IMG/VR virus record: IMGVR_UViG_3300025887_000011
Span: 1-64,000 of that record
DNA length: 64,000 bases
Direction: 5' to 3' (one strand)
DNA from: a virus
The position numbers and the translations under genes were made by a program. Below are positions 1-60,109 of the stretch, in pieces (the first letter of the stretch is position 1; every line of letters begins with the position of its first letter). The notes beneath the pieces are model-generated. The model had not been told where the DNA came from and ran no database searches. It was given only the letters and a program-made list of their open reading frames with translations.

Positions 1-164
1 ACATGCAAAACAATGCAGTAGACATAAATTTCAGTAATGTTTCTCCTTGGAAAGCCTCAAAAATAATGAAAGAATATAGAACCAGAGGAGAGTTTAAAGG
101 GGGCATAGGAATTTACAGATCATTCATCCATGTTGATACAAGGGGTGAGAATGCTAGTTGGTGA
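1..164 (+). CDS. Peptidase M15A (YcbK-like Zn peptidase, probable endolysin), 3' end only
   Basis: Frame 3 reads MQNNAVDINF...GGIGIYRSFIHVDTRGENASW*. AxD and GxGxY..FxHxDxR are M15A motifs. Runs off the window start; not in the ORF track. Confidence 0.8.
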   Translation, partial: MQNNAVDINFSNVSPWKASKIMKEYRTRGEFKGGIGIYRSFIHVDTRGENASW

Positions 165-166
165 TT

Positions 167-988: not shown

Positions 989-1332
989 TAGTCTGTTATG
1001 TGTCTGCTTGTTTTAAGATACATGGTTTCAGTATAATAGACTGCGCCACTAGGCTCTACGAACTTAATATCGTATTGCAAGCTATAATCAGCTGGTAATA
1101 CTAATGTTTCGGCTGGTGTAGCAGAAATGCCTACAATACCACTAGCGAAAGAGCCGCTATCAACAGCAAAAGACAAAAGTCCGCTGGCACCTGGTGACTC
1201 TTTTAAATCGCTACTAACGCCCCAACCACTTAGGTTTACAGCTATATCAGACTCATCCAAACAGGTAATAACTTGTTCAAAAGTGGAGCCTCTTTTGATT
1301 TCTGTTACAGTTTTTTCCAAATCACAAGACAT
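988..1332 (-). CDS. BppU-like/Ig-like fibre adaptor protein
   Basis: IKRGSTF...VNLSGW...YDIKF pattern; stop overlaps the start of the fibre gene. Confidence 0.5.
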   Translation of the reverse strand: MSCDLEKTVTEIKRGSTFEQVITCLDESDIAVNLSGWGVSSDLKESPGASGLLSFAVDSGSFASGIVGISATPAETLVLPADYSLQYDIKFVEPSGAVYYTETMYLKTSRHITD

Positions 1333-1381
1333 CTTATATGTTAATACACAAACCTGATTAAATTTTGCATAATTATATCAT

Positions 1382-2179
1382 TTACAGGTCATTAATCCAA
1401 TCAAAGCTTTGCTTAATCTGATCTGAGAACTCTCTACCCAAAACATCGTGCCAATCTGGCTTCAATGGCTTAACAACATTGCGGATCTTATGCTCACCAT
1501 AAGGCCAACCAAGCTCATGCTCATCTGTGTATTGCTCTACATTGAGCGGATTTACCTCAAATCTATCCATCTCTAAGTAGTCCCAGATTGCATTCATTGC
1601 TTCTACTGGGTTTGCTGTTAGATCTTCTGCATGAACAAAGTGAAGTTTATCCTTATGTCTCTTTACTGCATCATGAAGTCTCTCAACGGCAATGCCAAGT
1701 GGCGGCATTTGTAGCCATCCCTGTGATCTCTTCTCAACAGTTGTCCAGCTTTGGGGGTTTTGCTTCTCTACCCCAACAAACCTTGATGGATGTTTGATCC
1801 TCATCTTCTCAAAGCTAGATAGGATGCCACGAACATCTCTCACTGGCACTAATACCTTAGCATCTGGAAACACTTGAAACAATTGATCAAGATGCCCAAT
1901 CCATGATCTACACTTATCTACAACAACTGGTCTGTCAGTATCGCCATCAAATGCGCTTTTAATACCACCTCTAAGGAAATTGTGATATTGTCTTTCGCCG
2001 TCTAGTGGGTTTTTAAATGTTTTAAATTCCTCTGTTTCAAAGAAGTCTCTAGCAATGTAACCAATCTCATGAATGCCAGATGTGGCGGTGGCATGGACCT
2101 CAGGGTTTTGGGCTAGTAAGTTTTGTAGAAGAGTAGAGCAAGCTCTAGGAAGACCAGAAGTAAAATGAACTGTTTTCAT
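1382..2179 (-). CDS. Sulfotransferase (P-loop type)
   Basis: 5'-PAPS loop SGLPRACSTLL, VDKCRSW, 3'-PB motif VRDVRGILSS. Confidence 0.85.
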   Translation of the reverse strand: MKTVHFTSGLPRACSTLLQNLLAQNPEVHATATSGIHEIGYIARDFFETEEFKTFKNPLDGERQYHNFLRGGIKSAFDGDTDRPVVVDKCRSWIGHLDQLFQVFPDAKVLVPVRDVRGILSSFEKMRIKHPSRFVGVEKQNPQSWTTVEKRSQGWLQMPPLGIAVERLHDAVKRHKDKLHFVHAEDLTANPVEAMNAIWDYLEMDRFEVNPLNVEQYTDEHELGWPYGEHKIRNVVKPLKPDWHDVLGREFSDQIKQSFDWINDL

Positions 2180-2187
2180 ATATTAGT

Positions 2188-2215
2188 ATTATATATACTA
2201 ATAAAAAAAAGTCAA
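2188..2215 (-). promoter_or_regulatory. Sigma70-type promoter of the sulfotransferase gene
   Basis: TTGACT-16 nt-TATAAT, ending 8 nt before the ATG at 2179. Confidence 0.7.
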
Positions 2216-2221
2216 CAAAAA

Positions 2222-2854
2222 TTATGGTATATCAGGGTAGTTTGTCCAAGTGGATACTATGGCTGATGTGCCTTGTGTAATTTTCCAAGCAGCATCATAG
2301 CCAGTTGCATTCGGGCCTGTGTAGATATTAACAAGTGCGGTTGTTCCGTTTAATGCAGCGAATGCCCACGATGCAGCTGGTGTATTGGTATAAAGAGCGG
2401 TAATAGAAGAGCAAAAACCAAAAGCATAAGCTCCAATACTCGCAACACTATTTGGAACGACTAATGACGTAAAGCCAGTGCAATCATAAAACGCAAAATT
2501 TGCAATACTTGTTACACTATTTCCAATAGTTAATGTGCCAGTAAAGCCACAACTCCAAAACACATAATTTCCAATAGTCGTAACACTATCTGGAATGACC
2601 AAAGAACCAGTTAAGCCAGTGCAATTATTAAACGCATCAGTTCCAATACTCGTACAACTTGTGCCAATCTGTAATTGCTTTAAAGAGTCATCTAAATTCT
2701 TCCAGTTATCAGGAATAGCACCCATCACTTGATCAATAGTGCCTTGGGTATCATCCCAAACAATAGTCTGCGTTCCTATATTGCCAACACCTTCTTCTTG
2801 TAGGGTGAGTTCAGTTACGCCGTTGGTAGTTAGTCCTGTGTATAATTTGCTCAT
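2222..2854 (-). CDS. BspA-type (LRR_5) leucine-rich-repeat protein 1 (N-cap A, C-cap X)
   Basis: Repeats TGSLVIPDSVTTIGxxAFxxC; ends WTNYPDIP. Confidence 0.85.
   Translation of the reverse strand: MSKLYTGLTTNGVTELTLQEEGVGNIGTQTIVWDDTQGTIDQVMGAIPDNWKNLDDSLKQLQIGTSCTSIGTDAFNNCTGLTGSLVIPDSVTTIGNYVFWSCGFTGTLTIGNSVTSIANFAFYDCTGFTSLVVPNSVASIGAYAFGFCSSITALYTNTPAASWAFAALNGTTALVNIYTGPNATGYDAAWKITQGTSAIVSTWTNYPDIP
2724..2854 (-). repeat. 131-bp near-identical 5' segment shared by LRR genes 1 and 2 (second copy 3790-3920)
   Basis: Manual alignment gives 8 mismatches in 131 nt. Confidence 0.9.
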
Positions 2855-2858
2855 GTTT

Positions 2859-3920
2859 TTATAAATCGTAAACTACTGTCAACACTGGATTCGTTCCATA
2901 AGTGGCGGCATATCCTGTTGCTCCAGATGGAACATGAATCTCCGCTGGAGATACTGAGGTCATGTTATTGAAAGCAGTAGAGTTAATTGTTGGTGCTGTT
3001 GTCGCTAGAATGTTGGCAGATGTAATGGAAGAGCAACCACGAAAAGCATAAAACCCAATACTTGCAACACTATCAGGTATAGTTAACGAACCATTAAAGC
3101 TATTACAATCACGAAAAGCATAACCCCCAATAGTCGTAACACTATTCGGAATCACTAAGTCGCCAGTTAAGCCAGTGCAATAAGCAAAAGCACTAGTCCC
3201 AATACTCGTAACACTATTTCCAATAGTTAACGAACCAGTTAAGCCAGAGCAACTACGAAAAGAATAATTGCCAATAGTTACAACACCATTTCCAATAGTT
3301 AATGATGTGAAGCCGTTACAATTTTCAAAAGTGAAACTCGCAATATTTGTAACACTGTCTGGAATAACTAAATCTCCAGTGAAGCTTTCGCAACCACGGA
3401 AAGCATAATCTCCAATAATTTGCACAGTATTTGGAATTACTAATAAACCAGTTAAGCTTCCGCATTCATAAAAAGCCGATTGGCCAATACTTACTATACT
3501 ATTTCCAAGAGACAATGAGTTAGCAAGAACACAATAACCAAAAGCGTCACTCCCAATACTTGTAACTCCATCTCCTATTACTATCGCTCCATCTAATAAA
3601 CTTTCCGCATCACTACCCATGTAAAAAGCATAACTACCAATACTTGTAACACTATCTGGAATAACTAAATCTCCTGTAAGCCCATAACAATAAGCAAAAG
3701 AGTAATTTCCAATACTTGTGCATGAACTACCTATCTGTAATTTTTTTAAAGACTGGTCATTGTACTTCCAGTCATCAGGAATAGAGCCTATCACTTGATC
3801 AATAGTGCCTTGGGTATTATCCCAAACAATAGTTTGTGTTCCTATATTGCCAACACCTTCTTCTTGTAGAGTGAGTTCAATTACGCCGTTGGTAGTTAGT
3901 CCTGCGTATGCTTTGCTCAT
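2859..3920 (-). CDS. BspA-type LRR protein 2 (N-cap A, C-cap Y)
   Basis: About 10 LRR_5 repeats; ends EIHVPSGATGY...LTVVYDL. Confidence 0.85.
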   Translation of the reverse strand: MSKAYAGLTTNGVIELTLQEEGVGNIGTQTIVWDNTQGTIDQVIGSIPDDWKYNDQSLKKLQIGSSCTSIGNYSFAYCYGLTGDLVIPDSVTSIGSYAFYMGSDAESLLDGAIVIGDGVTSIGSDAFGYCVLANSLSLGNSIVSIGQSAFYECGSLTGLLVIPNTVQIIGDYAFRGCESFTGDLVIPDSVTNIASFTFENCNGFTSLTIGNGVVTIGNYSFRSCSGLTGSLTIGNSVTSIGTSAFAYCTGLTGDLVIPNSVTTIGGYAFRDCNSFNGSLTIPDSVASIGFYAFRGCSSITSANILATTAPTINSTAFNNMTSVSPAEIHVPSGATGYAATYGTNPVLTVVYDL

Positions 3921-4711
3921 TATGGTATGTTAGGGTAGTTAGTCCAGTCTATTACGGTGACATTAGATTTACCACCGACTGTTTGACCAGCGCCCAATGT
4001 CCAGCCATTGGCTACCGCATCTTTAGCATAGATGGTACTTAATCCAGAGGATAGAAATGCATTACTAGCAACGTTTGCTAGTGGCGGCGCTAGATATGCT
4101 GTATATAAGCCAATGCAATTCAAAAACGCATAACTACCAATACTTGTCACATTATTTGGAATAATTAATGAACCACTTAAGCCATTGCAACCACCAAAAG
4201 CATAATTCCCAATAGTCGTAACACTATTTCCAATGGTTAATGAAGTTAAGCCATAGCAACCATCAAACGCAAAAGACCCAATACTCGCAACACTATCTGG
4301 GATGACTAATGAACCAGTTAAGTCAAAGCAGAAGTAAAAAGAATAATCCCCAATACTCGTAACACTATTTCCAATGGTTAATGAAGTTACGCTGGTGCTA
4401 GCAAACGCATAACTTCCAATACTTGTAACACTATTTGGAATGACTAAGTCACCAGTTAAGGTAGAGCAATAACCAAAAGCATTACTTCCAATACTCGTAC
4501 AACTAGTGCCAATAACTAACCCCTTTGCAATACCACTAAAAACGTATTGACTTGCTGGTATATCGCCAACAATCTGCTCAACTACATTCGGTCCAGTATT
4601 CTTTGTAACAACAGTAGGAGTGCCAAGATTAGGCAACGTGCCTTCGTTGGCATCAAGCAAATTAAGCTCAACGACATTACCTGTCACATCTCCTTTGTAT
4701 GTTTTACTCAT
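3920..4711 (-). CDS. BspA-type LRR protein 3 (N-cap B, C-cap X)
   Basis: Starts MSKTYKGDVTGNVVELNL; LRR_5 repeats; ends WTNYPNIP. Confidence 0.85.
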   Translation of the reverse strand: MSKTYKGDVTGNVVELNLLDANEGTLPNLGTPTVVTKNTGPNVVEQIVGDIPASQYVFSGIAKGLVIGTSCTSIGSNAFGYCSTLTGDLVIPNSVTSIGSYAFASTSVTSLTIGNSVTSIGDYSFYFCFDLTGSLVIPDSVASIGSFAFDGCYGLTSLTIGNSVTTIGNYAFGGCNGLSGSLIIPNNVTSIGSYAFLNCIGLYTAYLAPPLANVASNAFLSSGLSTIYAKDAVANGWTLGAGQTVGGKSNVTVIDWTNYPNIP

Positions 4712-4712
4712 A

Positions 4713-5279
4713 TTACCAAGTGATCGCTTGTAGTTCTGCTAGTGTAGTTGCGGCGTCGATTGAGGTGTTTGCAGTCTTTTCTTTTGTAAATGCTTCTTTA
4801 AGGTGTGCTGTTACAGCATCAGATATACCAATAATGGCTGTAGCATCGATTGTAAGGAATGTACCATCACCAAGTTTCCAATCAGTAGCAAATGCGGCAT
4901 CTTCTTTAGCCAAGAATCTTGCTTGGTAAATTCTCTCTACTGTAAACCTATCAGTTCTTACTGATAGTCCATTTACATCAATACCACCTACTTCAAAATC
5001 ATATCTCTTACTGGCAAAGTGATCTCTTACGAATGCTTTTGCACCATCAATATCAGCACCAAACTCAGTAATTTGTGCTTCATATCTTTCTTGTTGTTTA
5101 GCTGCTCTGAATTCTTCCATTGTCAGTAGAACACCATCAACGATAAAGAATCTACCCTCACTAGCTTCTACTGTAGCTGCATCTGCATCAGAGATTTCGC
5201 TGTAGGTTTGACCGTCTGTTGGCTCTTCATCTACTATGTTAAAAATTGCTCCTCTTGGGCCTGTGATTGCGTATTTCAT
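4713..5279 (-). CDS. DUF4376-like tail-fibre-associated protein
   Basis: RYDFEVGGIDVNG..VRTD, WKLGDGTF, and C-terminal IDAATTLAELQAITW. Confidence 0.75.
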   Translation of the reverse strand: MKYAITGPRGAIFNIVDEEPTDGQTYSEISDADAATVEASEGRFFIVDGVLLTMEEFRAAKQQERYEAQITEFGADIDGAKAFVRDHFASKRYDFEVGGIDVNGLSVRTDRFTVERIYQARFLAKEDAAFATDWKLGDGTFLTIDATAIIGISDAVTAHLKEAFTKEKTANTSIDAATTLAELQAITW

Positions 5280-5300
5280 ATTATTATTTATTTAAAGTTT

Positions 5301-6494
5301 TTATAAGTCTTTTATTACTGTTAATCCATTCCATGTACTGCCAGCTACCCAAGAGCTTGCTGCGGGTACATGAATCTCTGTTGCATTATTTCCACCTGCA
5401 AATGGATTAACTGACGTTGGTGGTGGAGATGTCCTATAATATTCTATTCTTGTAAATGCACACCCATTGAACGCATTATTACCCACAGAAGAAGTAGTTG
5501 CTGGCAATACCAATGTACCAGTCATAGATGCGCAGAGATACAGCAAACCATTCGGTATTGCTGTAAGACCAGAACCTATGGTCACAGAAGTAAAATTATT
5601 ATTTCTAAAGCAAAATGTACCAATTATAGTTACCGTATCAGGTATATTGAGATTCCCAGTAAAACTACAATATTCAAAAGCTGCACCATTGATTGTTGTA
5701 ACATTGCTAGGTATAATCAAATTCCCAGTCATAGAGGTGCAGTTACTAAATATTCTAGCTCCAATGGTATTAAAGCTAGGATTTATAGGTAAAGTTAGGC
5801 TTGTTAAGCTAGAGCAACCCCTAAAAGCATTACCCCCAATACTTGTAACACTATCTGGGATAGTTAATGAGCCAGTTAAGCTATTGCAAAAACCAAAAGC
5901 ATAACTCCCAATACTTGTAACGCTATTTCCAATAGTTAATGAACCAGTGAAGCCAGTGCAACTATTAAAAGCGGCAAACCCAATAGTCGTAACACTATCT
6001 GGAATAGTTAATGAACCAGTAAAGCCAGAGCAAGAACGAAAAGCATAATTCCCAATACTTGTAACGCTATTTGGAATAATCAAGTCACCAGTTAAGCTAG
6101 CGGCTCCAATCGATTGGTCAAAAGCCTCATCTCCAATAGTTACAACACTATTTCCAAGTGTTAAAGAAGTTAAGTTACCGCAATAAGCAAAAGACCTATA
6201 GGATATACTCGTAACACTGTCTGGAATGACTAATGAACCAGTTAAGCCATCGCAAAGATAAAAAGCATTACTTCCAATACTTGTGCAACTTGTGCCAATT
6301 ACTAATCCTTTTAAATCAGCCCTAGCGTCATAAAACCCACTACTCTGAGTAATATCTCCGTTATGAACTACCCTGATTTCACCATTATTTATTCCACCAA
6401 GACCATAGGATGATGAGCCAATATTAGTCGCTCCAGCTTGTAAGTTAAGCTCGACTACATTGTTAGTTACGTCTCCTTTGAATGTTTGACTCAT
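5301..6494 (-). CDS. BspA-type LRR protein 4 (N-cap B, C-cap Y)
   Basis: Starts MSQTFKGDVTNNVVELNL; about 12 LRR repeats; ends EIHVPA...GLTVIKDL. Confidence 0.85.
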   Translation of the reverse strand: MSQTFKGDVTNNVVELNLQAGATNIGSSSYGLGGINNGEIRVVHNGDITQSSGFYDARADLKGLVIGTSCTSIGSNAFYLCDGLTGSLVIPDSVTSISYRSFAYCGNLTSLTLGNSVVTIGDEAFDQSIGAASLTGDLIIPNSVTSIGNYAFRSCSGFTGSLTIPDSVTTIGFAAFNSCTGFTGSLTIGNSVTSIGSYAFGFCNSLTGSLTIPDSVTSIGGNAFRGCSSLTSLTLPINPSFNTIGARIFSNCTSMTGNLIIPSNVTTINGAAFEYCSFTGNLNIPDTVTIIGTFCFRNNNFTSVTIGSGLTAIPNGLLYLCASMTGTLVLPATTSSVGNNAFNGCAFTRIEYYRTSPPPTSVNPFAGGNNATEIHVPAASSWVAGSTWNGLTVIKDL

Positions 6495-6497
6495 GGT

Positions 6498-7364
6498 TTA
6501 GGTTGCTTCGGTCTTATTGAGAGTTACCTCCCAAGATACCGAATCAGCACTATCACCAGTTACAATAAAGGTAAGTGCATTATTAGCCGCAGTTACTGTA
6601 ATGTCCCAAGCTATATCTTCTTCGGCGAAAACTGTTTTGGCTACAACGCCAACTAATGCGGCTGTTCCAGCATCGTTCTTAATGACACCCTCGATCTTAT
6701 AGCCAGCACTTTCAGTGGCAGATCTTGCGGCAACTAAAGCAGAGAATGTAATTGTTGAACCAGTAGCTACATCTACTCTATTCGGAGATGTTCCATCTAC
6801 AAAGATTTCTGTTGGAGTGGCATTTGCTGTAGTGCCTGAGAGTATACCTCCGCCTCCAGCAGCATTAATGATTGGGTTCTTTTGATCAGTGTTGTCGATT
6901 GTGACGTTTGTTCCGCCAACTACACTTTGCAAAGCATTATCTGCATTATCTAGCTGTGCTTGTGTAGCAAATTTGTTAGTTGTGGTAGCGTCAGAAATAT
7001 CATCAGCATCTAACACTACTGCACCTGTTTGAGTATTTACACTATCTACGGGTGCTGCTGGGGCTGTTGTTAAATACCCAGCATCATTTGTTAAAGTAGA
7101 AACATTATCCCCGCTTTGAAGTGCCGTGTCTGCCTTGTCTCCTTGAATTGAAGTAGCAAAATCTCCCGTGTTAGAAGCTGCCGCTGTGCCTAGTGTCGGT
7201 TTGTTGAGGATTTCACTTAAACCGCTAACGCTATTCCAGTCAGAGTTAGATGATTCTAATGCGGATATTCTAGTCTCAGAATCATTGACATTTAAATTGA
7301 TTATATCAACGCAGTCTTGGTGCGTCGATACTCCTGAAATTGGATTGAAAGGTGTTTGGGACAT
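6498..7364 (-). CDS. Fibre/spike protein, MSQxPF family member 1
   Basis: ILNKPTLGTAA, VSTLTNDAGYLT and SVNTQTGAVVL fibre motifs; beta-rich C-terminal domain. Confidence 0.65.
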   Translation of the reverse strand: MSQTPFNPISGVSTHQDCVDIINLNVNDSETRISALESSNSDWNSVSGLSEILNKPTLGTAAASNTGDFATSIQGDKADTALQSGDNVSTLTNDAGYLTTAPAAPVDSVNTQTGAVVLDADDISDATTTNKFATQAQLDNADNALQSVVGGTNVTIDNTDQKNPIINAAGGGGILSGTTANATPTEIFVDGTSPNRVDVATGSTITFSALVAARSATESAGYKIEGVIKNDAGTAALVGVVAKTVFAEEDIAWDITVTAANNALTFIVTGDSADSVSWEVTLNKTEAT

Positions 7365-7410
7365 TTTTTAAGTTTTTGTTATTTAATTTTATTAATTAAA
7401 GGTAGCTAAA

Positions 7411-8640
7411 TTAAAGTGATGTTATTGATGTGTCACTAACATAAACATATATAAGGCTTCCATCGTAATACCAACCAATAGTACAAACGTAACTTGCTGC
7501 TGGCATATCAGAAGCTATAACAGACAAGTCTCCAGATAGAGTTCTTAAGGAAGACCCTCCAAAAGCAAAAGGACTGACGCCTCCTTGTTGAACTAAAATC
7601 ATACCAGAATCTCCTTCTACAGCATTGCTAATAGATACACTAGTAACGTCCTCGGTGAGGCTGACTTTAATAGTTGAACCAAGATTATGATCCCATGTCA
7701 ACAACCCTCCTGATGATGTTACGACTTGTGGTGCCACACCACCAGAATTTGATTGCCATGTGCCAACTCCGTTCGCATCTGATGTTAGAACGTAGGTATC
7801 GGTTGCTCCTGTAGGCATTTTGAATCCTGCACCAACATTTAGGTTTGGAACGTATGTTGTATCCGCTGCATCTGTTGTGATATTCTGGCCACCTAAAATT
7901 ACTGAACGATGGTGGGTAGATTGAATTGTATTTGACTGCCCCCCCACAATAGCTGACTGGGTTGCGTTTTCAATGACTGAGGATTCCCCACCTAATGTAA
8001 GGCTGTGCTTTGCTACGGGATCTGTAGCGGGTGAGGTTGCAAGCCCTACCACATGATTAGCCCCCCCTACTGTATTGGTGAACTTTGTGTTTAGGGTAAC
8101 ATTTGTTCCACCAAATCCTTCTGACTCGTCTCCTCGGACAATTTGACTTGTCCCTCCAAAGGTTGAAGATTCGACTCCATTTGCTTGGTTTATTCTACCC
8201 CCAATAGTTACAGATCTATTACCCGCTGCTACGTTGGCTGTGCCTCCAATAGACGCACTGCTACTACCAGAGGCGGTATTGTTGTTTGCTGGAACTGTTG
8301 GATGCGCTGTGGCAATTCTCCCTACACTAATATCGTTTAGCGTGGTTGCTCCGTTAGTTGTTATACTTTCTAGCGTGGGGTCACTTGGCTGCAAGGCACT
8401 ATCAGCATTGTCCAACTGCGCTTGAGTTGCAAACTTATTAGTTGTGGTAGCGTCTGAAATATTATCAGCATCTAACACAACAACTCCTGTCTGAGCGTTT
8501 ACTGAAAATACCGCCCCACCACCAGAACCTGACTCCAATGCGGTCAGCCTAACTTCTGCATCATAAGCGTTTGCATTGTAAATATTTCTTGCTTCTAAGT
8601 GAGTAGATCCTTCTAATGGTATAAATGTTTCTTGTGGCAT
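7411..8640 (-). CDS. Fibre/spike protein, MSQxPF family member 2, with GGxxN beta-roll repeats
   Basis: SxxIGGxxN repeats resembling trimeric adhesin heads; YVLTSDANGVGTWQ motif. Confidence 0.65.
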   Translation of the reverse strand: MPQETFIPLEGSTHLEARNIYNANAYDAEVRLTALESGSGGGAVFSVNAQTGVVVLDADNISDATTTNKFATQAQLDNADSALQPSDPTLESITTNGATTLNDISVGRIATAHPTVPANNNTASGSSSASIGGTANVAAGNRSVTIGGRINQANGVESSTFGGTSQIVRGDESEGFGGTNVTLNTKFTNTVGGANHVVGLATSPATDPVAKHSLTLGGESSVIENATQSAIVGGQSNTIQSTHHRSVILGGQNITTDAADTTYVPNLNVGAGFKMPTGATDTYVLTSDANGVGTWQSNSGGVAPQVVTSSGGLLTWDHNLGSTIKVSLTEDVTSVSISNAVEGDSGMILVQQGGVSPFAFGGSSLRTLSGDLSVIASDMPAASYVCTIGWYYDGSLIYVYVSDTSITSL

Positions 8641-8644
8641 GTTG

Positions 8645-8737
8645 TTAAATTTTTATTGCTAGGTTTATGTATCTAATCCTTGATGATTTTTTCTGAGCTT
8701 CAGTAATTTGGTTTGGTTCTTCGTTTAATAAGCTCAT
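8645..8737 (-). other. 30-codon ORF MSLLNEEPNQITEAQKKSSRIRYINLAIKI, possible gene remnant
   Basis: AAAACATG start; fills the gap between two co-oriented genes; too short to assign. Confidence 0.3.
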
Positions 8738-9635: not shown

Positions 9636-9638
9636 TTT

Positions 9639-38243: not shown

Positions 38244-38647
38244 AAATTAATATCCTGGTCTTTGAAAAGTGATGCGTTTATTTCGTCCGTAGTATAAACT
38301 TCTAGAAGCTTTATATCATTAATCTCGCAAAAGTCAAACTTCTTTTGATCCCTTTTTAGTTGATCTAAATATTTAAGCCTGTTTTTGTGAAAGTGTTTAA
38401 CATACCTAATATGTTGATCACCTTGGACTTCAACTGCGATGCCTTTATTGGCGTTGTAAAAATCTAAGGATAGTCTTGTTCCGACTATTCTGAATTCTTC
38501 AAAAACTACATCATGCTTCCAGTAAGGCTTTAAAAAATCTTTAACTTTATTTTGGAACTTGCTTCTGCTAAGTGCATTCCAATCAATTAGGTATTTTTTT
38601 GCTCCTTTTAAATTTCTTGGTTTTCCATATGGATCCAAGAATTTCAT
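38240..38647 (-). CDS. Vsr/DUF559-like endonuclease
   Basis: LDFY...IAVEVQGDQH...RDQKK..FC..NDI.L. Confidence 0.8.
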   Translation of the reverse strand: MKFLDPYGKPRNLKGAKKYLIDWNALSRSKFQNKVKDFLKPYWKHDVVFEEFRIVGTRLSLDFYNANKGIAVEVQGDQHIRYVKHFHKNRLKYLDQLKRDQKKFDFCEINDIKLLEVYTTDEINASLFKDQDINL

Positions 38648-39771
38648 GTCAGTTCTGCTATCGCATTTTTAAAATATTTAATCAAGAAGTCAGAAAGTTT
38701 GTCGTCGTCTTCAATCAATTTAAACAGGTTGTTCTCTCCTTGTATTTTTTCTGGAAACTCAAGTTCGTTTTCAATGAGCAGTTCTTTAAAGTCTTCTGTA
38801 GCGGATATCCAAGCTCCCCCTTTTTTAAGGAACTCCCAAGCATACATCAAATCAATAATCTCTTTTTCAATCCATATAGAGTTTCCTCCTTTACGGCCAT
38901 ACCTCAAGGGGTAGGTTATTCTAGAGTTTGTTTTTTCGTTGGGTGACTTTTTAACTGTGACAACAGCAAAGTGGCCAATAATTGGATTTTTTTTCATGTC
39001 CATTTTTTTAATAGAAGAGTTTTGAAGTATAACATCCTTATTAAATCTTGGTTCAAATTCGATAATCCAATTAGCAAAGTGAAGTAGTGCGTTGCCTCCT
39101 GTAGCGCTGGTTTGTCTAATGGGGGCCTTTGTATAAGGATCTAATTTGATATCTGCTCTGACTTGAGAAATAAATATTGCCATGTGACCTCGCTTCGCCA
39201 AAGCAATAGACATTTTCTTCATAAAAGTACCTGCAATTACGGCCCCACCAGCAATCTTAGAAGAGTCCTCAAACCCCTTATCCATATCATTCTTCGGTAT
39301 CAGTCCATCTACAGAGTCAAGAACAAAACAATACTTTGTGTCGTTTTCATTGTCCGCAACAAGTTGCCTCATTAAATCTACAGCTGTTTCATAAATATTA
39401 GATTCAAATACAAAACAAGTTCCATCCACCCAGTCTTTTGCGCTGAAAACAAATTCAAGACCAGATCTTTCTCTCATCTCTTTAGACAGTCTTCCTTCTG
39501 CTTTTATGTAAACACCTTTCGATCTAGGTATTGTAGATAGAAAGTTTTTTATAACCTCTAAAGCCTCTGATGTCTTGCCTCCTTCATTCATACCACAAAA
39601 TCTATGGAGTCCAGGCCCAAAGCCGCCTCCAAGCTGAAGGTCGAATTGTAGAGATCCGCTAGATACTTTATAATCTATCTCTTCTTCGAAGTTATAGTGA
39701 TCATCCTTGTTTGCCTTAAGGAATCTGTCTAATAAATTGATTGAGTCTTGTTGTTGTTCTTCTTTATTCAT
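38644..39771 (-). CDS. recA: RecA/UvsX-like recombinase
   Basis: SSGSLQFDLQLGGG, G.NEGGKTS, VLDSV, FISQVR, TGGNALLHFA. Confidence 0.9.
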   Translation of the reverse strand: MNKEEQQQDSINLLDRFLKANKDDHYNFEEEIDYKVSSGSLQFDLQLGGGFGPGLHRFCGMNEGGKTSEALEVIKNFLSTIPRSKGVYIKAEGRLSKEMRERSGLEFVFSAKDWVDGTCFVFESNIYETAVDLMRQLVADNENDTKYCFVLDSVDGLIPKNDMDKGFEDSSKIAGGAVIAGTFMKKMSIALAKRGHMAIFISQVRADIKLDPYTKAPIRQTSATGGNALLHFANWIIEFEPRFNKDVILQNSSIKKMDMKKNPIIGHFAVVTVKKSPNEKTNSRITYPLRYGRKGGNSIWIEKEIIDLMYAWEFLKKGGAWISATEDFKELLIENELEFPEKIQGENNLFKLIEDDDKLSDFLIKYFKNAIAELT

Positions 39772-54274: not shown

Positions 54275-57200
54275 TTAATTTCCATCTGTAGAAGGATAAA
54301 GCCTCCAAGGTAATACTGTCAAACCCTGGAATGTTGGACCGTAATTTCCTGTGTATTCATCTGTTACGTATAAATTGCCAGTAGGGCCATTTAAAAAAGC
54401 ATTAGCTCCTATGTTGGGAGAATCAATATCAAGAAAAACATTCCTTATTTTTGAGCAGTTTTCATAAGCAGAAGCACCTATTGACATGTTTAATTCAAAA
54501 TAATTAGCAAAAATAATGTCTCCAGTTATATTAGAACAACCTTTAAATGCATTATCTCCTATTTTAGATAAAGATGGGATATCTTCATAACTAAGTATTT
54601 GAGATATACCGCTACAGTTTCTGAACGCTGCGTTATCTATTACTTCTAAACTAGGACCAAGAGCTAAAAAAGGTCCAACTTGAGAACAACCATCAAAAGC
54701 TTGATTTGCTATTCCAGTGGTGCCAAAACCAAAGGCTAATGATCCAGATAAATTATCTAAACCAGCAAAAGCTCTGGTGCCAATAGAAATCAGACCTTCA
54801 GAAAGCAAACGTAATTGTCCTGAAAATCCAGAACATTCATAAAAAGATTCTTTTCCTATTCTTTGGATGTTTGGTGGTAAAGTTAGTCCTCCATTAAAAC
54901 CAGTACATCTTGAAAAACTATAATCATCTAAATATAGTAGGGTTCCTGGTAGTTCTAGCTTTCCAGTAAAATTATAATCATAGAATCCAGAAACACCAAC
55001 CCCAGTAACTCCTTCTTTAAAAGATAGAGTGCTTTGGCTGTCAAAGTTATATGTTTTATAGAATTCAAAAGAACTTTTTTGCACCGAAGACGAAGGACAG
55101 GAAGCTAATACAAGGCCAGTAAAATAAGATTGGTCAAATACATTTATCCCGACATCTGTAGATGGGCTCATTTGCAAAAACCCACTAAAAGGACTATCTT
55201 GAAAAGCTGAATTTTCGATCTTTTGGACAGAACAACCTATTTTAGCGCTTCCCGATAATCCAGTACAACCTTTAAACGCAGCAAAACCAATGCCAGTGAC
55301 TGAATTAGGAATGTTAATAGATCCTGTTAAGTTATATCCAGAAAAAGCATATTCATGCAAACCCGAAGCATTATTATTAATTATTAAGTTTAGATTAATA
55401 TCTTTAAACTCTTCATAGAATCCAGACTTAATCTCTGTTAATGATGAAGCTGTAAATAATCTTCCACCTTCAATATTTATTCCTGAAAAATTTGTTCCAT
55501 AAAAAACATTTCTTCCTATTGATGTTCCGTCTTCTATATTCAATAACCCTGAAAGGCCAGAACAACCAGAAAATGCGAAGTTTCCTATTTTATTTAAATT
55601 GTCGCTAAATGTCAATCCTCCAGTTAAAGGCCAATTATCAAAAGATCTTGAATTTATGTTTTTAACGCTTTCAGGGAAACTAACAGAACTAGAGTTGCTA
55701 TTTGATAAATAGTAGTCAAATTCATTGTTGCTTATGTTTTTAACCCCTTGAGACACTTTAAGGTTTGTAAAATCACATCCAGTAAAAGCTAATGGATGTA
55801 TCAAACCGCTTCCAGATTGAGGCTCTAAACCTCCCTCCCATATTGCTGGGAAAGTTGTTAAAGTTTTTGCGTTTGAACAATTTCTAAAAGCTCCGCTTTC
55901 TATAGCGGAATCTCCAGAACCATAAATGAATTGAGCTCTTGATAAAGATATTTCTGAGAAACCACTACAATCATCAAATGCTAAACTTCTTATGCCAGTT
56001 AAGGATGTAGGTAAATCTAATTTACCAGTAAATTGCATTCCTGCAAAAGATCTTTTGTTAATTTGTTCGACCTTTGAAGGAGCTTTGAATGTTAAAATAC
56101 TTTGCTCTGCATAATTAGAAGTTGTTTTTGTGTGTATATCTAACCCGTACCAACCGTATCCGAAATAACTAGTATTTGCATTCCGACCTGTAACAGAGTA
56201 AATAACATTTGGAACTTCTAAGTTTTTAAAATCGTTGTTTTTAAAAGAGTCAGGACTATTAATAAATCTACTGGACTGACCATCCCTGCTTAAATATTGA
56301 TATGAAGGCGGAACAGTTAATTTCCCATCAAAAGCATTTAAATCAAAAGCTAGATTAGAAATGGTTGAAATCCCTGTAGAGTTTAATTCTAGATCTCCAG
56401 TTAAATTACAAAATCGAAACCCCTGACTCCCTACTGACTGCAGATTTTTGCTAAAAAATATTTTTTTCTGTTGTAAACTAGCGCCTCCAAATACACTTGT
56501 CGAAGCAGTCTTTAATTTAGGAAAGTGAAAATCATTTTGAATATCGTAACCTTTAATAAAACCACCTCTGAATGCAAGAGATCCAAGATTTTCCAGGTTG
56601 TTATCGACAGGAAAAGTAAATTTCCCTTTTGGTGATTTATCTTGGTTATAATCCATTCCAAAAGCACTACTCCCAATGCTGCGTACACTCGCTGGTAGAT
56701 AAAAGTCTCCAGTCATATAAGATAGATAGAACCTCGAGGTTATACTTGAGGTCGCGTAAAAAGCCAGATCCTCTATAGTTACAAGACCTTCATTAAGTTT
56801 TAAAGTATGAATTCCTGTTGTCGGGCTGGCATTACTTGTAGATCTGAAAGACTGGTTAAAAGCATAAGGTTCTATACCAGTTATATTGGATGGTATTTCT
56901 AAAACTCCAGTTATGTAGTTATTAGCAAATCCATAAGTTGGGATTATTTGTAAACCAGTTCCAATTTCTAGGCTTCTAATATTATTATCTCTAAACCCAC
57001 TTCCCCCCATAAATACTAATGAATCTGGTATTTTAAGTTCTCCAGTTATAGCCCATCTATAACATGATGCATTAGCTACATTTTTAACGCCCTCTTCTAT
57101 ATTTACATATGGGAACGGCTTAGTAGTTTGTGATAGGCGTCTTCTAAACCATTGATAGTCATTTGTTCCATCAAAAGTTAACGTACAAGATTTTACTGTT

Positions 57201-60109
57201 AAACCAGTCAAACTAGAAGGGGGGAAAGAAGAATTTACTCCAGTATCAGCTATAACTCCGCTACCAGCAGACACCTTAGTAAAATTACAACCAGTAAAAG
57301 CTAAAGGGCCTATTTCAAGATCTCCGCAATTAAGTTCTATTTCTTCATCAAATGAAGAACACCCATTGAAAGCATTGTCTCCTATAACACTAACTGACTC
57401 TGGAATTATCAACTTCCCCGTTAAACTAGAGCAATTCTGGAATGTGTTTTTTCCTATTCCTAGCAAACCGCTTTGAAAATTTAAATTTTTAAATCCAGTT
57501 GAATTATAAAAAGCAAAATCACCAACCCCAGTTATTTGTTGCCCTATGTTTATAGAACCTGTCAAGCTACTGCAATTATAAAATGTTTTTTCTTTTATTA
57601 CGTCTATTGAATTACTTATAGAAAGTTGGCCGTCAAACCCATCACAATCCTGAAAAACACCAACCCCTAAACCAGTTATTTTAGACGTAATGTTTAAATC
57701 TCCTTCGAAGCTGTTGCATCCAGAAAAAGCATGATTACCAATTAAGCTAACGTTGTTTAAGTTTAAATTACCAGTAAAACTATAACCATCAAAAGCGTTA
57801 TCTGCTATGGTTTTAGTATCATCGCCTAAAGTTAAAGACGCAAATGAAGTTTTAAAAGCGTCAAATTGATTGTCATTTATTGTTTTTACTTTGCTTATGA
57901 TTATATTTTTAAAATTATTATTACCAAAAGCATTTGTAGCAATAGTCTTATCTCCAATAATTTGTATTGAAGAGTCAAATCCAGAGCAATCAAAAAAAGC
58001 AGCGTCTTCTATTTCTTTTATGTAATCTGGAAATATAAGATCTCCAGAAAAACCAGCACAACCAGAGAAAACACCTGATTGTAATTTAGATAAACTTGTG
58101 CTAAATTTTAAACCAGTTCCTAAACTTTCACAACCAGCAAAAGAATAGCTTCCTAAACCAGTTATGCTATTAGGCAGTATTAAATTTCCAGTTATATTAG
58201 AGCATTCGTAAAAAGCTTTATTATCAATAATGCTAACTTCTTCATCAAAGAAAATAAAACCATTTATACCAGAGTTATTATTAAAAGCAGACTTGCCTAT
58301 TCTGTTTAAGAAAACAGGAAAAACTAAAGATCCAGTGAATTGATAATTGTCGAATGCGTTATCATTTATGCCGCTAAGATAAGGTGACATAGTTAACAAC
58401 AGCTTTGAATCAGAAAAATAATCATAACCACCGTCATCTACATAATCAATGAGGTCGTCAAATATTAATTCATTAAATTGACAACCAGAAAAAGCGTTTA
58501 AACCAATACTTGTTATTGTACTGTCTGATATTTTTATAGATTTCTTAAAATTAGAACAATTACCAAAAGCTTCTTGTCCTATATTTAAAACATTTCTTGG
58601 GATTTCGAGATCTCCATTTAAGCCAGTGCAATTAAAAAAAGCTTCTCTAGCTATTCCAGATATAGACTCACCAATATAAAGACCACCATCGAATCCAGAA
58701 CAATTATAAAAAGTTTCTGTTTTTACATCTTTAAGTAGATCATGTAGATAAAGATCTCCTTTAAAACCTGCACAATCTTTAAAAGCTGACCTAGATATAT
58801 TTTCTGTAAAGTCTGGAATTCTTAAAGCTCCAGTTATATTGGAGCAACCAGAAAAAGCTTCTCTACCTATTGAGTTTGCTAAGGTTCCTATTCTTAATCT
58901 TGCAGCGTTTAAGTCACCGCTACTCCAATAAGAAGGTATATTTGCTTCGGTTGATCTTAACACTGCTCCATTAGAATCGTATACAGTAGAATCGAAAAAT
59001 GGCGTAGTCCAAAAGTTAAAATCTTTCTTGTTGTTTATCGGAAATGAAAACGAAGATGAATATGTCATACTTTCGTTTTCTTTCATCGAATAAGAAAAAC
59101 TCTCTAATTGTAAGTTTGGAAACCTCAATATTGAAGCATAGTCAGATTCTAAATTCTCAGCTACTAAAGAGAAAGAATAGCGATCTTCGTCAGCCAGTAA
59201 ACCAGATATAAATCCAGTTTGGTATTTTGATACGTTCGACTCAATATTTAAAGTGCCCTCTAAAGGAAATTTTATTTTTCTATCACGAATGTAGTCAGAA
59301 CCTAAGCCTTCTAAGTTTACCCTGTTTATAGGTATAGTCATAGACATGCTTGTCACCCTATGGTCAGCACCATAAAGATCTTGGCCACCAATTTGGATAT
59401 TAGCCAACACCAAACTCAAACCGCAACTAGTAGCGTGGATATCTGGCTTTGTGAAGTCTAAATATCTTTCAGAAGCTTCGTCATAACCAGAAAGTTTTGT
59501 GCCAGATACTAGCAGTCTACCAACTCCATTGTCATTTCCAGATATTAGATTTATAGCTGGAGACTTTATATTACCAGTATAAATATCGCCCTGCATATTA
59601 GAGCATTTATAACTTGTTCTTACTTTTGGTATAGAACCTATCTCGAACGACAAGTTATAAGAGTTTAAGTATGAGTTCCCAAATGAAAATATTTCTCCGC
59701 TATTAGGATTCTGTAAAGCATTAGAGTCAAAATAATCTATAGCATCAGACCCTTCATCTGGATGGTTATAGAAATAAAAATTATAAGACTTGTCTAATAA
59801 TTGCTCTAAAAAACCAGTTGGCTTATAGTTTACACCAGTAACTATACCCAAGCCCATTAAGTTTTCATTAGGCATAAATGGATTATATAGATAATCTATA
59901 GTAAGATCTATTTCTGGGTGTTTGTTGATGCTATTAAGTTGAAAATCTTTTGATCCAACAGCTCCAGCCTTTTCTCTTTGCATGGATACAGAAAAAGACG
60001 AGTTAGTAACCCCGCCAAACAAAACTCCAGACTCATCGTAATCTTTGAACGATGGAGACTCTCCTATTATTACTAAACTATTATTACTATTTAATCTTAT
60101 TCTAGACAT
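54275..60109 (-). CDS. 1944-aa fusion of a tail-tube-like domain (about 365 aa) and a very long BspA LRR array
   Basis: N-domain (SFSVSMQRE..GAVG, LNSYNLSFEIGSIP, IPINRVNLEGLGS) is paralogous to 61143-61937; followed by dozens of IGxxAFxxC repeats. Confidence 0.8.
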   Translation of the reverse strand: MSRIRLNSNNSLVIIGESPSFKDYDESGVLFGGVTNSSFSVSMQREKAGAVGSKDFQLNSINKHPEIDLTIDYLYNPFMPNENLMGLGIVTGVNYKPTGFLEQLLDKSYNFYFYNHPDEGSDAIDYFDSNALQNPNSGEIFSFGNSYLNSYNLSFEIGSIPKVRTSYKCSNMQGDIYTGNIKSPAINLISGNDNGVGRLLVSGTKLSGYDEASERYLDFTKPDIHATSCGLSLVLANIQIGGQDLYGADHRVTSMSMTIPINRVNLEGLGSDYIRDRKIKFPLEGTLNIESNVSKYQTGFISGLLADEDRYSFSLVAENLESDYASILRFPNLQLESFSYSMKENESMTYSSSFSFPINNKKDFNFWTTPFFDSTVYDSNGAVLRSTEANIPSYWSSGDLNAARLRIGTLANSIGREAFSGCSNITGALRIPDFTENISRSAFKDCAGFKGDLYLHDLLKDVKTETFYNCSGFDGGLYIGESISGIAREAFFNCTGLNGDLEIPRNVLNIGQEAFGNCSNFKKSIKISDSTITSIGLNAFSGCQFNELIFDDLIDYVDDGGYDYFSDSKLLLTMSPYLSGINDNAFDNYQFTGSLVFPVFLNRIGKSAFNNNSGINGFIFFDEEVSIIDNKAFYECSNITGNLILPNSITGLGSYSFAGCESLGTGLKFSTSLSKLQSGVFSGCAGFSGDLIFPDYIKEIEDAAFFDCSGFDSSIQIIGDKTIATNAFGNNNFKNIIISKVKTINDNQFDAFKTSFASLTLGDDTKTIADNAFDGYSFTGNLNLNNVSLIGNHAFSGCNSFEGDLNITSKITGLGVGVFQDCDGFDGQLSISNSIDVIKEKTFYNCSSLTGSINIGQQITGVGDFAFYNSTGFKNLNFQSGLLGIGKNTFQNCSSLTGKLIIPESVSVIGDNAFNGCSSFDEEIELNCGDLEIGPLAFTGCNFTKVSAGSGVIADTGVNSSFPPSSLTGLTVKSCTLTFDGTNDYQWFRRRLSQTTKPFPYVNIEEGVKNVANASCYRWAITGELKIPDSLVFMGGSGFRDNNIRSLEIGTGLQIIPTYGFANNYITGVLEIPSNITGIEPYAFNQSFRSTSNASPTTGIHTLKLNEGLVTIEDLAFYATSSITSRFYLSYMTGDFYLPASVRSIGSSAFGMDYNQDKSPKGKFTFPVDNNLENLGSLAFRGGFIKGYDIQNDFHFPKLKTASTSVFGGASLQQKKIFFSKNLQSVGSQGFRFCNLTGDLELNSTGISTISNLAFDLNAFDGKLTVPPSYQYLSRDGQSSRFINSPDSFKNNDFKNLEVPNVIYSVTGRNANTSYFGYGWYGLDIHTKTTSNYAEQSILTFKAPSKVEQINKRSFAGMQFTGKLDLPTSLTGIRSLAFDDCSGFSEISLSRAQFIYGSGDSAIESGAFRNCSNAKTLTTFPAIWEGGLEPQSGSGLIHPLAFTGCDFTNLKVSQGVKNISNNEFDYYLSNSNSSSVSFPESVKNINSRSFDNWPLTGGLTFSDNLNKIGNFAFSGCSGLSGLLNIEDGTSIGRNVFYGTNFSGINIEGGRLFTASSLTEIKSGFYEEFKDINLNLIINNNASGLHEYAFSGYNLTGSINIPNSVTGIGFAAFKGCTGLSGSAKIGCSVQKIENSAFQDSPFSGFLQMSPSTDVGINVFDQSYFTGLVLASCPSSSVQKSSFEFYKTYNFDSQSTLSFKEGVTGVGVSGFYDYNFTGKLELPGTLLYLDDYSFSRCTGFNGGLTLPPNIQRIGKESFYECSGFSGQLRLLSEGLISIGTRAFAGLDNLSGSLAFGFGTTGIANQAFDGCSQVGPFLALGPSLEVIDNAAFRNCSGISQILSYEDIPSLSKIGDNAFKGCSNITGDIIFANYFELNMSIGASAYENCSKIRNVFLDIDSPNIGANAFLNGPTGNLYVTDEYTGNYGPTFQGLTVLPWRLYPSTDGN

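What the first reader, a model, noticed from the sequence alone, without database searches (positions are those of the whole stretch)
2222..6494. Four LRR genes cover all four combinations of two N-caps and two C-caps
Seen: N-cap A (MSKxYxGLTTNGVxELTLQEEG) is in genes 1 and 2, and N-cap B (MSxTxKGDVTxNVVELNL) is in genes 3 and 4. C-cap X (WTNYPxIP) is in 1 and 3, and C-cap Y (EIHVP...LTVxxDL) is in 2 and 4. That gives AX, AY, BX and BY. Repeat number varies from about 4 to 12. The roughly 66-72-bp units share DNA such as ccaatacttgtaacactat, while the residues around AF vary. Known: BspA LRRs are binding solenoids. Inference: a recombination-shuffled repertoire of virion adhesins, loosely analogous to lamprey VLRs, docking through a shared MSxxYxGxxTxxVxELxL peptide.
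Basis: partly seen in the sequence, partly recalled or inferred. Interest (0 to 1): 0.8.

Follow-up and report, generated by a model that had tools for sequence, protein, structure and literature searches.

The report
Shuffled LRR adhesin genes, phage tail
An uncultured marine phage carries four related leucine-rich-repeat binder genes inside its tail-fibre gene cluster, and comparison with 16 related phage contigs shows that their fronts stay fixed by position while repeats and rear ends are swapped by recombination, the usual way phages vary host-recognition parts but here on a little-studied kind of protein.

Summary
Observation confirmed. Four minus-strand genes (2222-2854, 2859-3920, 3920-4711, 5301-6494) are BspA-type LRR_5 proteins with about 4 to 12 repeats, and at coarse grain they give all four N-end/C-end combinations.

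Sixteen related IMG/VR contigs carry the same cassette between conserved flanks. They show a clearer rule:
- The first 20-35 residues are specific to the gene's position in the cassette and under strong purifying selection (leader B1 before a DUF4376 fibre-chaperone gene, B2 after it, A in the last one or two positions).
- Repeat blocks and C-terminal modules move freely between positions and genomes. Some pairs have 97-100% identical leaders with 47-59% identical ends. Others have 86-94% identical ends with 44-66% identical leaders.
- On a tree of C-ends, leader class is close to randomly placed.
- Repeat units in the window do not cluster by gene. The 1944-aa fifth LRR gene lies outside the pool.

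No reverse transcriptase, invertase or silent cassettes were found, so this is ordinary homologous recombination and not a VLR-like programme.

AlphaFold2 shows the "N-cap" motif is a non-packed leader ahead of the true cap. Tail attachment through that leader is inferred from gene context only.

The scan has flagged similar shuffled phage LRR arrays on other DNA.

The parts
5301..6494 (-). LRR gene g4, cassette position 1 (397 aa, leader B1, C-end Y1, about 12 repeats)
   Evidence: ORF. LRR_5 345.9 bits. Units. Orthologues of 377-472 aa keep the same leader and cap but have a replaced middle.
4713..5279 (-). DUF4376 tail-fibre assembly chaperone (Tfa-like), a conserved landmark inside the cassette
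   Evidence: PF14301 48.6 bits against a 25-bit cut-off, and phrog_10508 tail fiber. DUF4376 is the chaperone domain of Mu U/Tfa and of the Alteromonas phage V22/A5 chaperones (PMC7882524, PMC10579305). It is 73-97% identical in 12 related loci.
3920..4711 (-). LRR gene g3, position 2 (263 aa, leader B2, C-end X3, 6-7 repeats). Its start overlaps the chaperone stop (TAATG).
   Evidence: AF2 pLDDT 90.2. Best Foldseek matches are BspA-type LRR proteins 4fdw, 4fd0, 4h09 and 4gt6.
2859..3920 (-). LRR gene g2, position 3 (353 aa, leader A, C-end Y2, 10-11 repeats). Its start overlaps the g3 stop.
   Evidence: AF2 pLDDT 91.4.
2222..2854 (-). LRR gene g1, position 4 (210 aa, leader A, C-end X2, 4-5 repeats)
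4622..4711 (-). Leader of g3 (residues 1-30), not packed on the solenoid
   Evidence: pLDDT 48-56 over residues 1-30 and at least 86 afterwards. The first 34 residues are identical or differ by one residue in 8 contigs whose chaperone is only 81-97% identical. dN 0-0.013 against dS 0.04-0.08.
3846..3920 (-). Leader of g2 (residues 1-25), not packed
   Evidence: pLDDT 47-51 over residues 1-20 and 68 for 21-30. dN 0.013 against dS 0.24 versus the L011 orthologue.
2780..2854 (-). Leader of g1 (by homology to g2)
   Evidence: 17/20 identical to g2. dN 0 against dS 0.09 versus L011.
6420..6494 (-). Leader of g4 (class B1)
   Evidence: 15/20 identical to g3. dN 0 against dS 0.10-0.23 versus L012 and L011.
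6498..7364 (-). Fibre-like gene immediately upstream (left flank). One of three paralogues sharing an MSQxPFxP...SETRxSALE N-terminus.
   Evidence: The C-terminal domain is conserved in L011, L012 and L033.
1382..2179 (-). Sulfotransferase, the conserved right flank of the cassette
   Evidence: PF13469 60.6 bits. It is 88-100% identical in 14 related contigs, with two more distant at 67-69%. dN/dS 0.01-0.04.
54275..60109 (-). Fifth LRR_5 gene (1944 aa) downstream of the tape measure. Not part of the shuffling pool.
   Evidence: Its units are about 50% nt identical to cassette units, against 61% among the four cassette genes.
38644..39771 (-). UvsX-like recombinase, a candidate enzyme for the homologous exchanges
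   Evidence: phrog_97, 1.5e-34. Its role here is inferred only.

Best explanation
The four genes are a tandem family of BspA-type LRR solenoid proteins embedded in the host-recognition operon of an uncultured marine siphovirus. That operon runs fibre paralogues, LRR1, Tfa chaperone, LRR2, LRR3, LRR4.

Each protein has four parts:
- a 20-35 residue leader that is specific to the gene's position in the cassette and strongly conserved;
- a true N-cap;
- a variable number of 22-24 residue repeats, whose framework DNA is conserved and whose five surface positions are hypervariable;
- a BspA C-cap, with or without a WTNYPxIP tail.

Shown: homologous recombination between paralogues and between co-infecting relatives moves repeat blocks and C-terminal modules between positions and genomes, while the leaders stay in place. 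The conserved framework DNA of the repeats is the likely substrate. This produces the AX/AY/BX/BY pattern seen in the window.

Inferred: the leaders tether the solenoids to fixed sites on the tail tip or fibres. The solenoids would then act as interchangeable accessory adhesins or receptor binders that set or widen host range.
For: Family and fold:
- LRR_5 hits.
- AF2 models with pLDDT 90-91.
- Best Foldseek matches are BspA-type surface LRRs, the adhesin PcpA and TpLRR.

Context:
- Lambda-like gpL/K/I/J genes and fibre genes surround the cassette.
- A DUF4376 fibre chaperone sits inside it (PMC7882524, PMC10579305).
- TAATG start/stop overlaps couple the genes.

Population data:
- 16 related contigs have conserved flanks but a different LRR content.
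- Leaders are fixed by position and caps float.
- Leader 97-100% with cap 47-59%, and cap 86-94% with leader 44-66%.
- On the cap tree, leader class changes 16 times (minimum 5, shuffled mean 17.9).
- 7 of 18 unit clusters at 90% nt identity span more than one leader class.
- Within single genomes, caps of different positions are sisters. The two c652_241 caps have 97% support and c319_619 carries X4 in all three positions.

Leaders:
- Summed over six comparisons there are 2 non-synonymous against 16 synonymous changes.
- Low pLDDT.
- Found only on LRR genes.

Other:
- Variable positions are rich in Tyr, Ser, Asn, Gly and Arg.
- A relative, P0007, fuses the same leader and LRR to He_PIG and FGE-sulfatase-like domains, which I recall as typical of extracellular adhesins.
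Against: - There is no direct evidence that the proteins are in virions.
- No docking partner was identified, and no multimer modelling was possible.
- LRR solenoids are normally monomers, unlike trimeric fibres.
- dN/dS of the LRR body is 0.29-0.42. That is relaxed relative to the flanks but not above 1, so positive selection is not shown.
- No cultured relative exists and the host is unknown.
- The leader/partner co-variation rests on a single clade contrast.
Confidence: 0.6

Rival explanations
1. The LRR proteins are not tail parts. They would be packaged internal or ejected proteins, or intracellular effectors or anti-defence binders. The conserved leader would then be a capsid-targeting or processing tag of the T4 CTS type.
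For: - Leader A contains LQE, which fits the L/I-x-E site of T4 gp21 protease (from my own knowledge).
- In relative L011 the cassette lies next to a Peptidase_S77 prohead protease and a gp23-type capsid gene.
- Earlier scan notes propose CTS-like leaders on other phage LRR arrays.
- There is no signal peptide, and the leaders are unstructured in the models.
Against: - Leaders B1, B2 and the C-class leaders lack a consistent L/I-x-E site.
- All 66 leader occurrences in the fetched loci, and all 4 in the genome, head LRR genes and never an unrelated protein.
- No S77 or gp23 match is present in the 91.8 kb held for this phage.
- The genes are translationally coupled to the fibre and chaperone genes.
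- Leaders differ by cassette position, which a common packaging tag would not need.
Confidence: 0.2
2. The pattern is a programmed, high-frequency diversification system: VLR-like copy choice, a DGR, or an invertase shufflon that generates new binders within a population.
For: It is a tandem repertoire with constant framework DNA and variable surface codons. Some genomes show the same cap in every position, that is, gene conversion.
Against: - No reverse transcriptase, resolvase/invertase or integrase was found in 91.8 kb.
- All copies are complete genes on one strand, with no partial silent cassettes.
- The longest exact DNA match between the window's genes is 33 bp.
- Exchanged modules are 86-94% identical and never identical.
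Confidence: 0.05
3. There is no shuffling. The four genes would be old tandem duplicates that diverged in place, with the 2x2 pattern arising from shared ancestry plus independent loss of the WTNYPxIP tail.
For: Within the window alone the paralogues are old: there are no long identical tracts. X and Y are variants of one cap family, so two independent truncations could mimic the pattern.
Against: - The population data contradict it.
- The Y caps form one clade with 100% support yet sit behind leaders A, B1 and C1.
- Caps 93-94% identical lie behind unrelated leaders.
- Orthologous positions with 99% identical leaders carry unrelated caps.
Confidence: 0.05

Closest known systems
BspA-type LRR surface proteins (Pfam LRR_5, PF13306), e.g. 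Bacteroides BACOVA_01565 (PDB 4fdw), S. pneumoniae PcpA (4cp6), T. pallidum TpLRR (6mlx)
   Same: Same repeat family and predicted fold, the same IYVP-type C-cap, and an adhesin or binding role in the characterised members.
   Different: These are phage-encoded, short, and lack a signal peptide or anchor. They carry a phage-specific N-terminal leader and are organised as a recombining tandem cassette inside a tail-fibre operon.
Multi-RBP phages with conserved N-terminal anchors and swapped distal domains (my knowledge: CBA120 TSP1-4, G7C gp63.1/gp66, K1-5/SP6, Klebsiella phiK64-1)
   Same: Several paralogous host-recognition proteins per virion. The N-terminal attachment part is conserved and specific to its position, the distal binding part is exchanged horizontally, and the genes cluster near the baseplate or tail-tip genes.
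   Different: Those are trimeric beta-helix tailspikes or fibres, often enzymatic. Here the distal part is a presumably monomeric LRR solenoid and the anchor is a 20-35 residue peptide, not a folded domain. Attachment is not shown.
T-even gp38-type adhesins (T2, T6, S16) capping the gp37 fibre tip
   Same: A small separate protein encoded next to the fibre and chaperone genes. It has a conserved N-terminal attachment part, and hypervariable binding segments embedded in conserved repeat motifs that favour recombination.
   Different: No sequence or fold relation: Pfam gives only LRR_5 for these genes. There are four copies instead of one. Binding to a fibre tip is hypothetical.
Lamprey/hagfish variable lymphocyte receptors
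   Same: An LRR scaffold with a constant framework and variable surface residues, built from interchangeable repeat modules between N- and C-caps.
   Different: VLRs are assembled somatically from silent cassettes by deaminase-dependent copy choice. Here every copy is a complete germline gene and exchange is ordinary recombination over evolutionary time.
Tail-fibre assembly chaperones with DUF4376 (Mu U/Tfa, Alteromonas phage V22 gp27 and A5 gp9)
   Same: The 188-aa gene at 4713-5279 is a member and marks the locus as a fibre module (PMC7882524, PMC10579305, PMC7289586).
   Different: In the described systems the chaperone directly follows its trimeric fibre gene. Here an LRR gene lies between the fibre and the chaperone, and more LRR genes follow.

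Membership tests
BspA-type LRR (Pfam LRR_5, PF13306) | Profile match above the curated gathering score | tested here: met
   82, 192.8, 135.3 and 345.9 bits against a 27.7-bit cut-off for g1-g4. The genome scan agrees.
BspA-type LRR (Pfam LRR_5, PF13306) | Solenoid fold resembling solved LRR_5 proteins | tested here: met
   AF2 pLDDT 90.2 and 91.4. Foldseek top hits are 4fdw, 4fd0, 4h09, 4gt6 and 4fs7, with E-values from 4e-6 to 2e-5 and probability 1.00.
Phage multi-RBP sets with a shared N-terminal anchor | Paralogues share a conserved N-terminal part while distal parts differ | tested here: met
   Eight invariant leader residues in all four genes. Leaders are fixed by position across contigs with dN about 0, while caps and repeats are exchanged.
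Phage multi-RBP sets with a shared N-terminal anchor | Proteins are physically attached to the virion tail | not testable with these tools
   Only gene context is available. There is no proteome, no cultured relative and no multimer modelling.
Phage multi-RBP sets with a shared N-terminal anchor | Trimeric fibre or tailspike architecture | tested here: inconclusive
   The monomer models are complete LRR solenoids with no coiled coil or beta-helix. Oligomeric state could not be modelled.
Lamprey VLR-type assembly | An incomplete expressed gene flanked by silent partial LRR cassettes | tested here: not met
   All copies in the window and in the 16 related contigs are complete ORFs with their own start, caps and stop.
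Diversity-generating retroelement | Reverse transcriptase with a template/variable repeat pair | tested here: not met
   No RVT_1 match in the 91.8 kb record. The record is about 74% complete, so absence is not absolute.
Invertase shufflon (Mu Gin, P1 Cin, R64 Rci type) | A site-specific recombinase and oppositely oriented alternative gene ends | tested here: not met
   No resolvase/invertase or tyrosine recombinase match. All LRR genes lie on one strand.
T4-type capsid-targeting sequence proteins | A short leader ending in an L/I-x-E protease site, shared by unrelated packaged proteins, with an S77 prohead protease in the genome | tested here: not met
   Only leader A has LQE. The leader is found only on LRR genes. 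There is no S77 match in the held genome, though relative L011 has one.
DUF4376 tail-fibre chaperone (gene 4713-5279) | Profile match above the cut-off and a position in a fibre locus | tested here: met
   48.6 bits against 25, and phrog_10508 'tail fiber protein' at 5.9e-20.

The most novel reading that the evidence does not exclude
The position-specific leaders are plug-in peptides that dock three or four monomeric LRR solenoids at distinct sites on a siphovirus tail tip or on its fibres. That would be a receptor-binding system built on LRR scaffolds instead of trimeric fibres. Its binding heads would be re-dealt between docking positions by recombination, so one phage lineage could carry many combinations of specificities.
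Probability: 0.35. Interest if true: 0.7.

Novelty: new variant of a known kind. Interest (0 to 1): 0.5.

Why it matters
Phage host range is usually explained by trimeric fibres and tailspikes. LRR_5 proteins are common in uncultured phages, but every annotated match I found in deposited phage records is labelled hypothetical, and I found no paper describing them as phage receptor binders.

This locus gives a clean natural experiment: 17 related genomes, fixed leaders, and floating repeat blocks and caps. It defines the module boundaries of such proteins and shows which part is likely the attachment handle and which the specificity part.

If the tail-adhesin reading holds, it adds a scaffold class to phage host recognition. 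It also gives a rule for reading host-range modules in metagenomic phages.

Tried and rejected
- Megablast of window 1-12000 against GenBank phages found nothing. Protein searches with the DNA polymerase, gpJ and g3 found only distant hits below 60% identity, so there is no cultured relative and no host.
- A search for recent gene conversion inside the window found a longest exact match of only 33 bp.
- Promoter and terminator scans of 1-11200 were not enriched over shuffles.
- The leader was sought on other proteins of the genome and of all fetched loci. It was found only on LRR genes.
- Pfam on the distant-clade leaders and neighbouring fibre genes gave nothing beyond LRR_5.
P0007 was then sought in viral contigs, with no match, so its gene context is unknown.
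- Literature searches for phage BspA/LRR receptor binders gave only a passing mention: the Goslar DUF7941 proteins with LRR or beta-helix domains.
- The DGR, shufflon and integrase readings were rejected.
- The CTS reading was considered and kept as a minor rival.
- No multimer modelling or per-site selection test (codeml or FUBAR type) was possible.

Full report
**What is there**

The window is the first 64 kb of a 91.8-kb IMG/VR virus record, estimated 74% complete. The phage has a lambda-like tail tip:
- gpL at 10990-11952;
- gpK-like at 11961-12374;
- three gpI fusions at 12371-16613;
- gpJ at 16629-21323;
- a tape measure starting at 61937.

A minus-strand operon runs divergently from the gpL-J operon. 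In transcription order it carries:
- small genes;
- three fibre-like paralogues sharing an MSQxPFxP...SETRxSALE N-terminus (8762-9184, 7411-8640, 6498-7364);
- LRR gene g4 (5301-6494);
- a DUF4376 gene (4713-5279);
- LRR genes g3 (3920-4711), g2 (2859-3920) and g1 (2222-2854);
- a sulfotransferase (1382-2179);
- two further fibre-related genes.

DUF4376 is the conserved domain of tail-fibre assembly chaperones such as Mu U/Tfa and the Alteromonas phage V22/A5 chaperones (PMC7882524, PMC10579305, PMC7289586). The junctions chaperone-g3 and g3-g2 are TAATG overlaps, and g1 starts 4 nt after g2 ends. The LRR genes are therefore co-transcribed and probably translationally coupled with the fibre genes.

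**Check of the observation**

All four genes are LRR_5 proteins (82-346 bits).
- g1 and g2 share 49 of 60 leader residues (88% nt).
- g3 and g4 share 15 of their first 20 residues.
- Between the two classes identity is 34-41%.
- g1 and g3 end in WTNYPxIP. g2 and g4 have EIHVP...LTVxxDL.
- Repeat counts are about 4-5, 6-7, 10-11 and 12.
- The quoted 19-mer encodes (N/D)SVTSIG and occurs 17 times with at most 2 mismatches, against none expected.

- The X and Y ends are variants of one BspA C-cap. X adds a 7-8 residue tail.
- At finer grain the window has three leader classes and four cap subtypes.
- The 'N-cap' motif is not a cap (see "Structure" below).

**Are units shuffled within the window?**

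I segmented units with an HMM built from 19 clean units and compared 69-nt units without gaps.
- The nearest unit lies in the same gene for only 4 of 29 units, against 7.3 expected at random.
- Mean within-gene identity (0.598) is not higher than between-gene identity (0.614).
- Units of the 1944-aa fifth LRR gene (54275-60109) average 0.50 identity to cassette units, so that gene lies outside the pool.
- The longest exact DNA match between any two cassette genes is 33 bp. Nothing in this genome is a recent conversion.

**Population evidence**

I searched IMG/VR with leader A, with the chaperone and with the sulfotransferase. This returned 16 other contigs with the same locus. The flanks are conserved: the chaperone is 73-97% identical and the sulfotransferase 88-100% in most contigs. 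The LRR content differs in several ways:
- gene number is three or four in complete cassettes;
- gene length is 180-472 aa;
- repeat blocks and ends differ.

The leaders turn out to be fixed by position:
- B1 (MSQTFKGDVT...) always precedes the chaperone.
- B2 (MSKTYKGDVTGNVVELNLLDANEG...) always follows it.
- A (MSKxYxGLTTNGV...) heads the last one or two genes.
- A more distant clade uses three different MSHTxKxPP leaders.

C-terminal modules float. I distinguished nine subtypes.
- Subtype X1 sits behind leaders A, B2 and C1.
- X3 sits behind A, B2 and C3.
- Y2 sits behind A, B1 and C1.
- X2 sits behind A, B1 and C2.

At the DNA level:
- 22 gene pairs have leaders at least 90% identical but last-150-nt identity below 60%. 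One example is window g3 against its L012 orthologue, at 99% and 56%.
- 11 pairs have ends 86-94% identical behind leaders only 44-66% identical. One example is window g3 against a C3-leader gene, at 93% and 44%.

On trees:
- On a maximum-likelihood tree of the C-ends, leader class needs 16 changes. The minimum possible is 5 and the shuffled mean is 17.9.
- On the leader tree, cap type needs 17 changes. The minimum is 8 and the shuffled mean is 21.2.
- The two ends therefore have almost independent histories.
- The Y caps form one clade with 100% support yet occur behind three leader classes, which rules out independent truncation.

Other signs of exchange:
That is intragenomic conversion.
- Of 198 units, only 18 clusters share at least 90% nt identity, and 7 of these span more than one leader class. 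The repertoire is very diverse and blocks do move between positions.
- Window-to-L012 collinearity breaks exactly over 2654-4245, which covers the g1 N-part, g2 and the g3 C-part.
- Orthologues of g4 keep both ends at 85-92% identity while the middle is replaced.

**Mechanism of shuffling**

No reverse transcriptase, serine invertase or tyrosine recombinase is present in the 91.8 kb. All copies are complete genes on one strand, and exchanged modules are never identical.

This is ordinary homologous recombination. It is probably seeded by the near-constant framework DNA of the repeats. It may be catalysed by the phage's UvsX-like recombinase (38644-39771) during co-infection and between paralogues. 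The VLR analogy holds for the architecture only.

**Structure and the leader**

AF2 models of g3 (B2/X3) and g2 (A/Y2) are confident (pLDDT 90.2 and 91.4), except for residues 1-30 and 1-25, which score 47-56.
- The true N-cap is the following stretch, about residues 25-60 (NIGTQTIVWD...IDQVxGxIP...).
- Both C-end types are confidently folded.
- Foldseek places the model with BspA-type surface LRR proteins, the pneumococcal adhesin PcpA and TpLRR.

The leaders are under strong purifying selection:
- Over six orthologous comparisons there are 2 non-synonymous against 16 synonymous changes.
- The LRR body has dN/dS 0.29-0.42 and the flanking genes 0.01-0.19.
- The first 34 residues of leader B2 are identical or differ by one residue in eight contigs whose adjacent chaperone is only 81-97% identical.
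- The leader occurs only on LRR genes in the genome and in all fetched loci.
- Leader A is rare globally, with 16 cluster representatives among 1.8 billion.
- One of those, P0007, joins it to two LRR modules, a He_PIG Ig domain and an FGE-sulfatase-like domain.

A segment that is conserved, position-specific and unfolded on its own is what a docking peptide would look like. No partner has been identified.

In the distant clade, both the leaders and the fibre gene just upstream of position 1 are of different types. That fits co-variation but is a single contrast.

**Binding surface**

In 138 clean units, L1, I3, S6, V7, T8, I10, A14, F15 and C18 are nearly fixed. Positions 12, 13, 16, 17 and 19 carry 12-15 residue types (2.8-3.4 bits), led by Tyr, Ser, Asn, Gly, Phe and Arg. 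This fits a variable ligand-binding face but does not by itself show positive selection.

**Function**

Shown:
- family and fold;
- operon context;
- modular recombination;
- leader constraint.

Inferred: the proteins are tail-associated accessory adhesins or receptor binders.

The main rival is that they are packaged or intracellular binders with a CTS-like tag. Three things suggest it:
- scan notes on other phages;
- the LQE in leader A;
- a T4-type prohead protease next to the cassette in L011.

I give it about 0.2, for these reasons:
- the other leaders lack such a site;
- the leader is not shared with other protein types;
- the held genome shows no S77 or gp23 match;
- the genes are embedded in the fibre/chaperone operon.

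**Comparison with what is known**

The logic of a conserved attachment end and exchangeable binding end, with several binders per virion, is that of multi-RBP phages and of gp38-type adhesins. The protein family (LRR_5), the peptide-sized position-specific leaders, and the exchange at the level of repeat blocks and caps are the differences.

Every annotated LRR_5 match in the GenBank phage records is labelled hypothetical, and the rest carry no annotation. I found no paper treating such proteins as phage receptor binders. The nearest is a passing mention in the Goslar structure preprint.

The scan itself has flagged comparable shuffled LRR arrays in other phages, so the kind is recurrent.

I rate it a new variant of a known kind, of moderate interest.

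Noticed in passing
window 619-1352; L036 12978-13711: A 734-bp stretch is 99.9% identical to a contig whose neighbouring genes are only about 80-84% identical. It covers the 114-aa gene and part of the 273-aa fibre-like gene. This looks like a very recent horizontal exchange in the same tail region.
   Followed up: no
L011 2-553: This ORF joins the middle of the window's 409-aa fibre (GFKMPTGATDTYVLT...) to the C-terminal domain of the 288-aa fibre. The fibre paralogues upstream of the LRR cassette are therefore mosaics too.
   Followed up: partly
L011 5566-10040: In this relative the cassette and sulfotransferase are followed by a TnsA-like endonuclease, a T4-type prohead protease (Peptidase_S77) and a gp23-type major capsid gene. 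The held 91.8 kb of the window's genome has no gp23 or S77 match. The head genes may lie in the missing part.
   Followed up: partly
L016 373-3525: A 1050-aa LRR protein lies upstream of the cassette in contig 3300024346_009716. It has an X2-like C-end (YNAAWKTAQ...WNNFP), so the cap family also occurs on a giant protein.
   Followed up: no
window 12371-16613: Three tandem gpI-like (phrog_32) genes of 433-499 aa have long differing C-terminal extensions. With the fibre trio and the LRR genes, this makes three mosaic paralogue families in one tail region.
   Followed up: no
window 61937-64000, continuing to 70996 in G000: The tape-measure ORF is 3019 aa long. It is followed by a Phage_min_tail gene and then the 1944-aa LRR_5 protein. 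These lie more than 30 kb from, and on the opposite strand to, the gpL-K-I-J genes.
   Followed up: no
window 2188-2215 (minus strand): The best sigma-70-like site of the region (TTGACT-16-TATAAT, 11 of 12) lies between g1 and the sulfotransferase. The sulfotransferase may have its own promoter.
   Followed up: no
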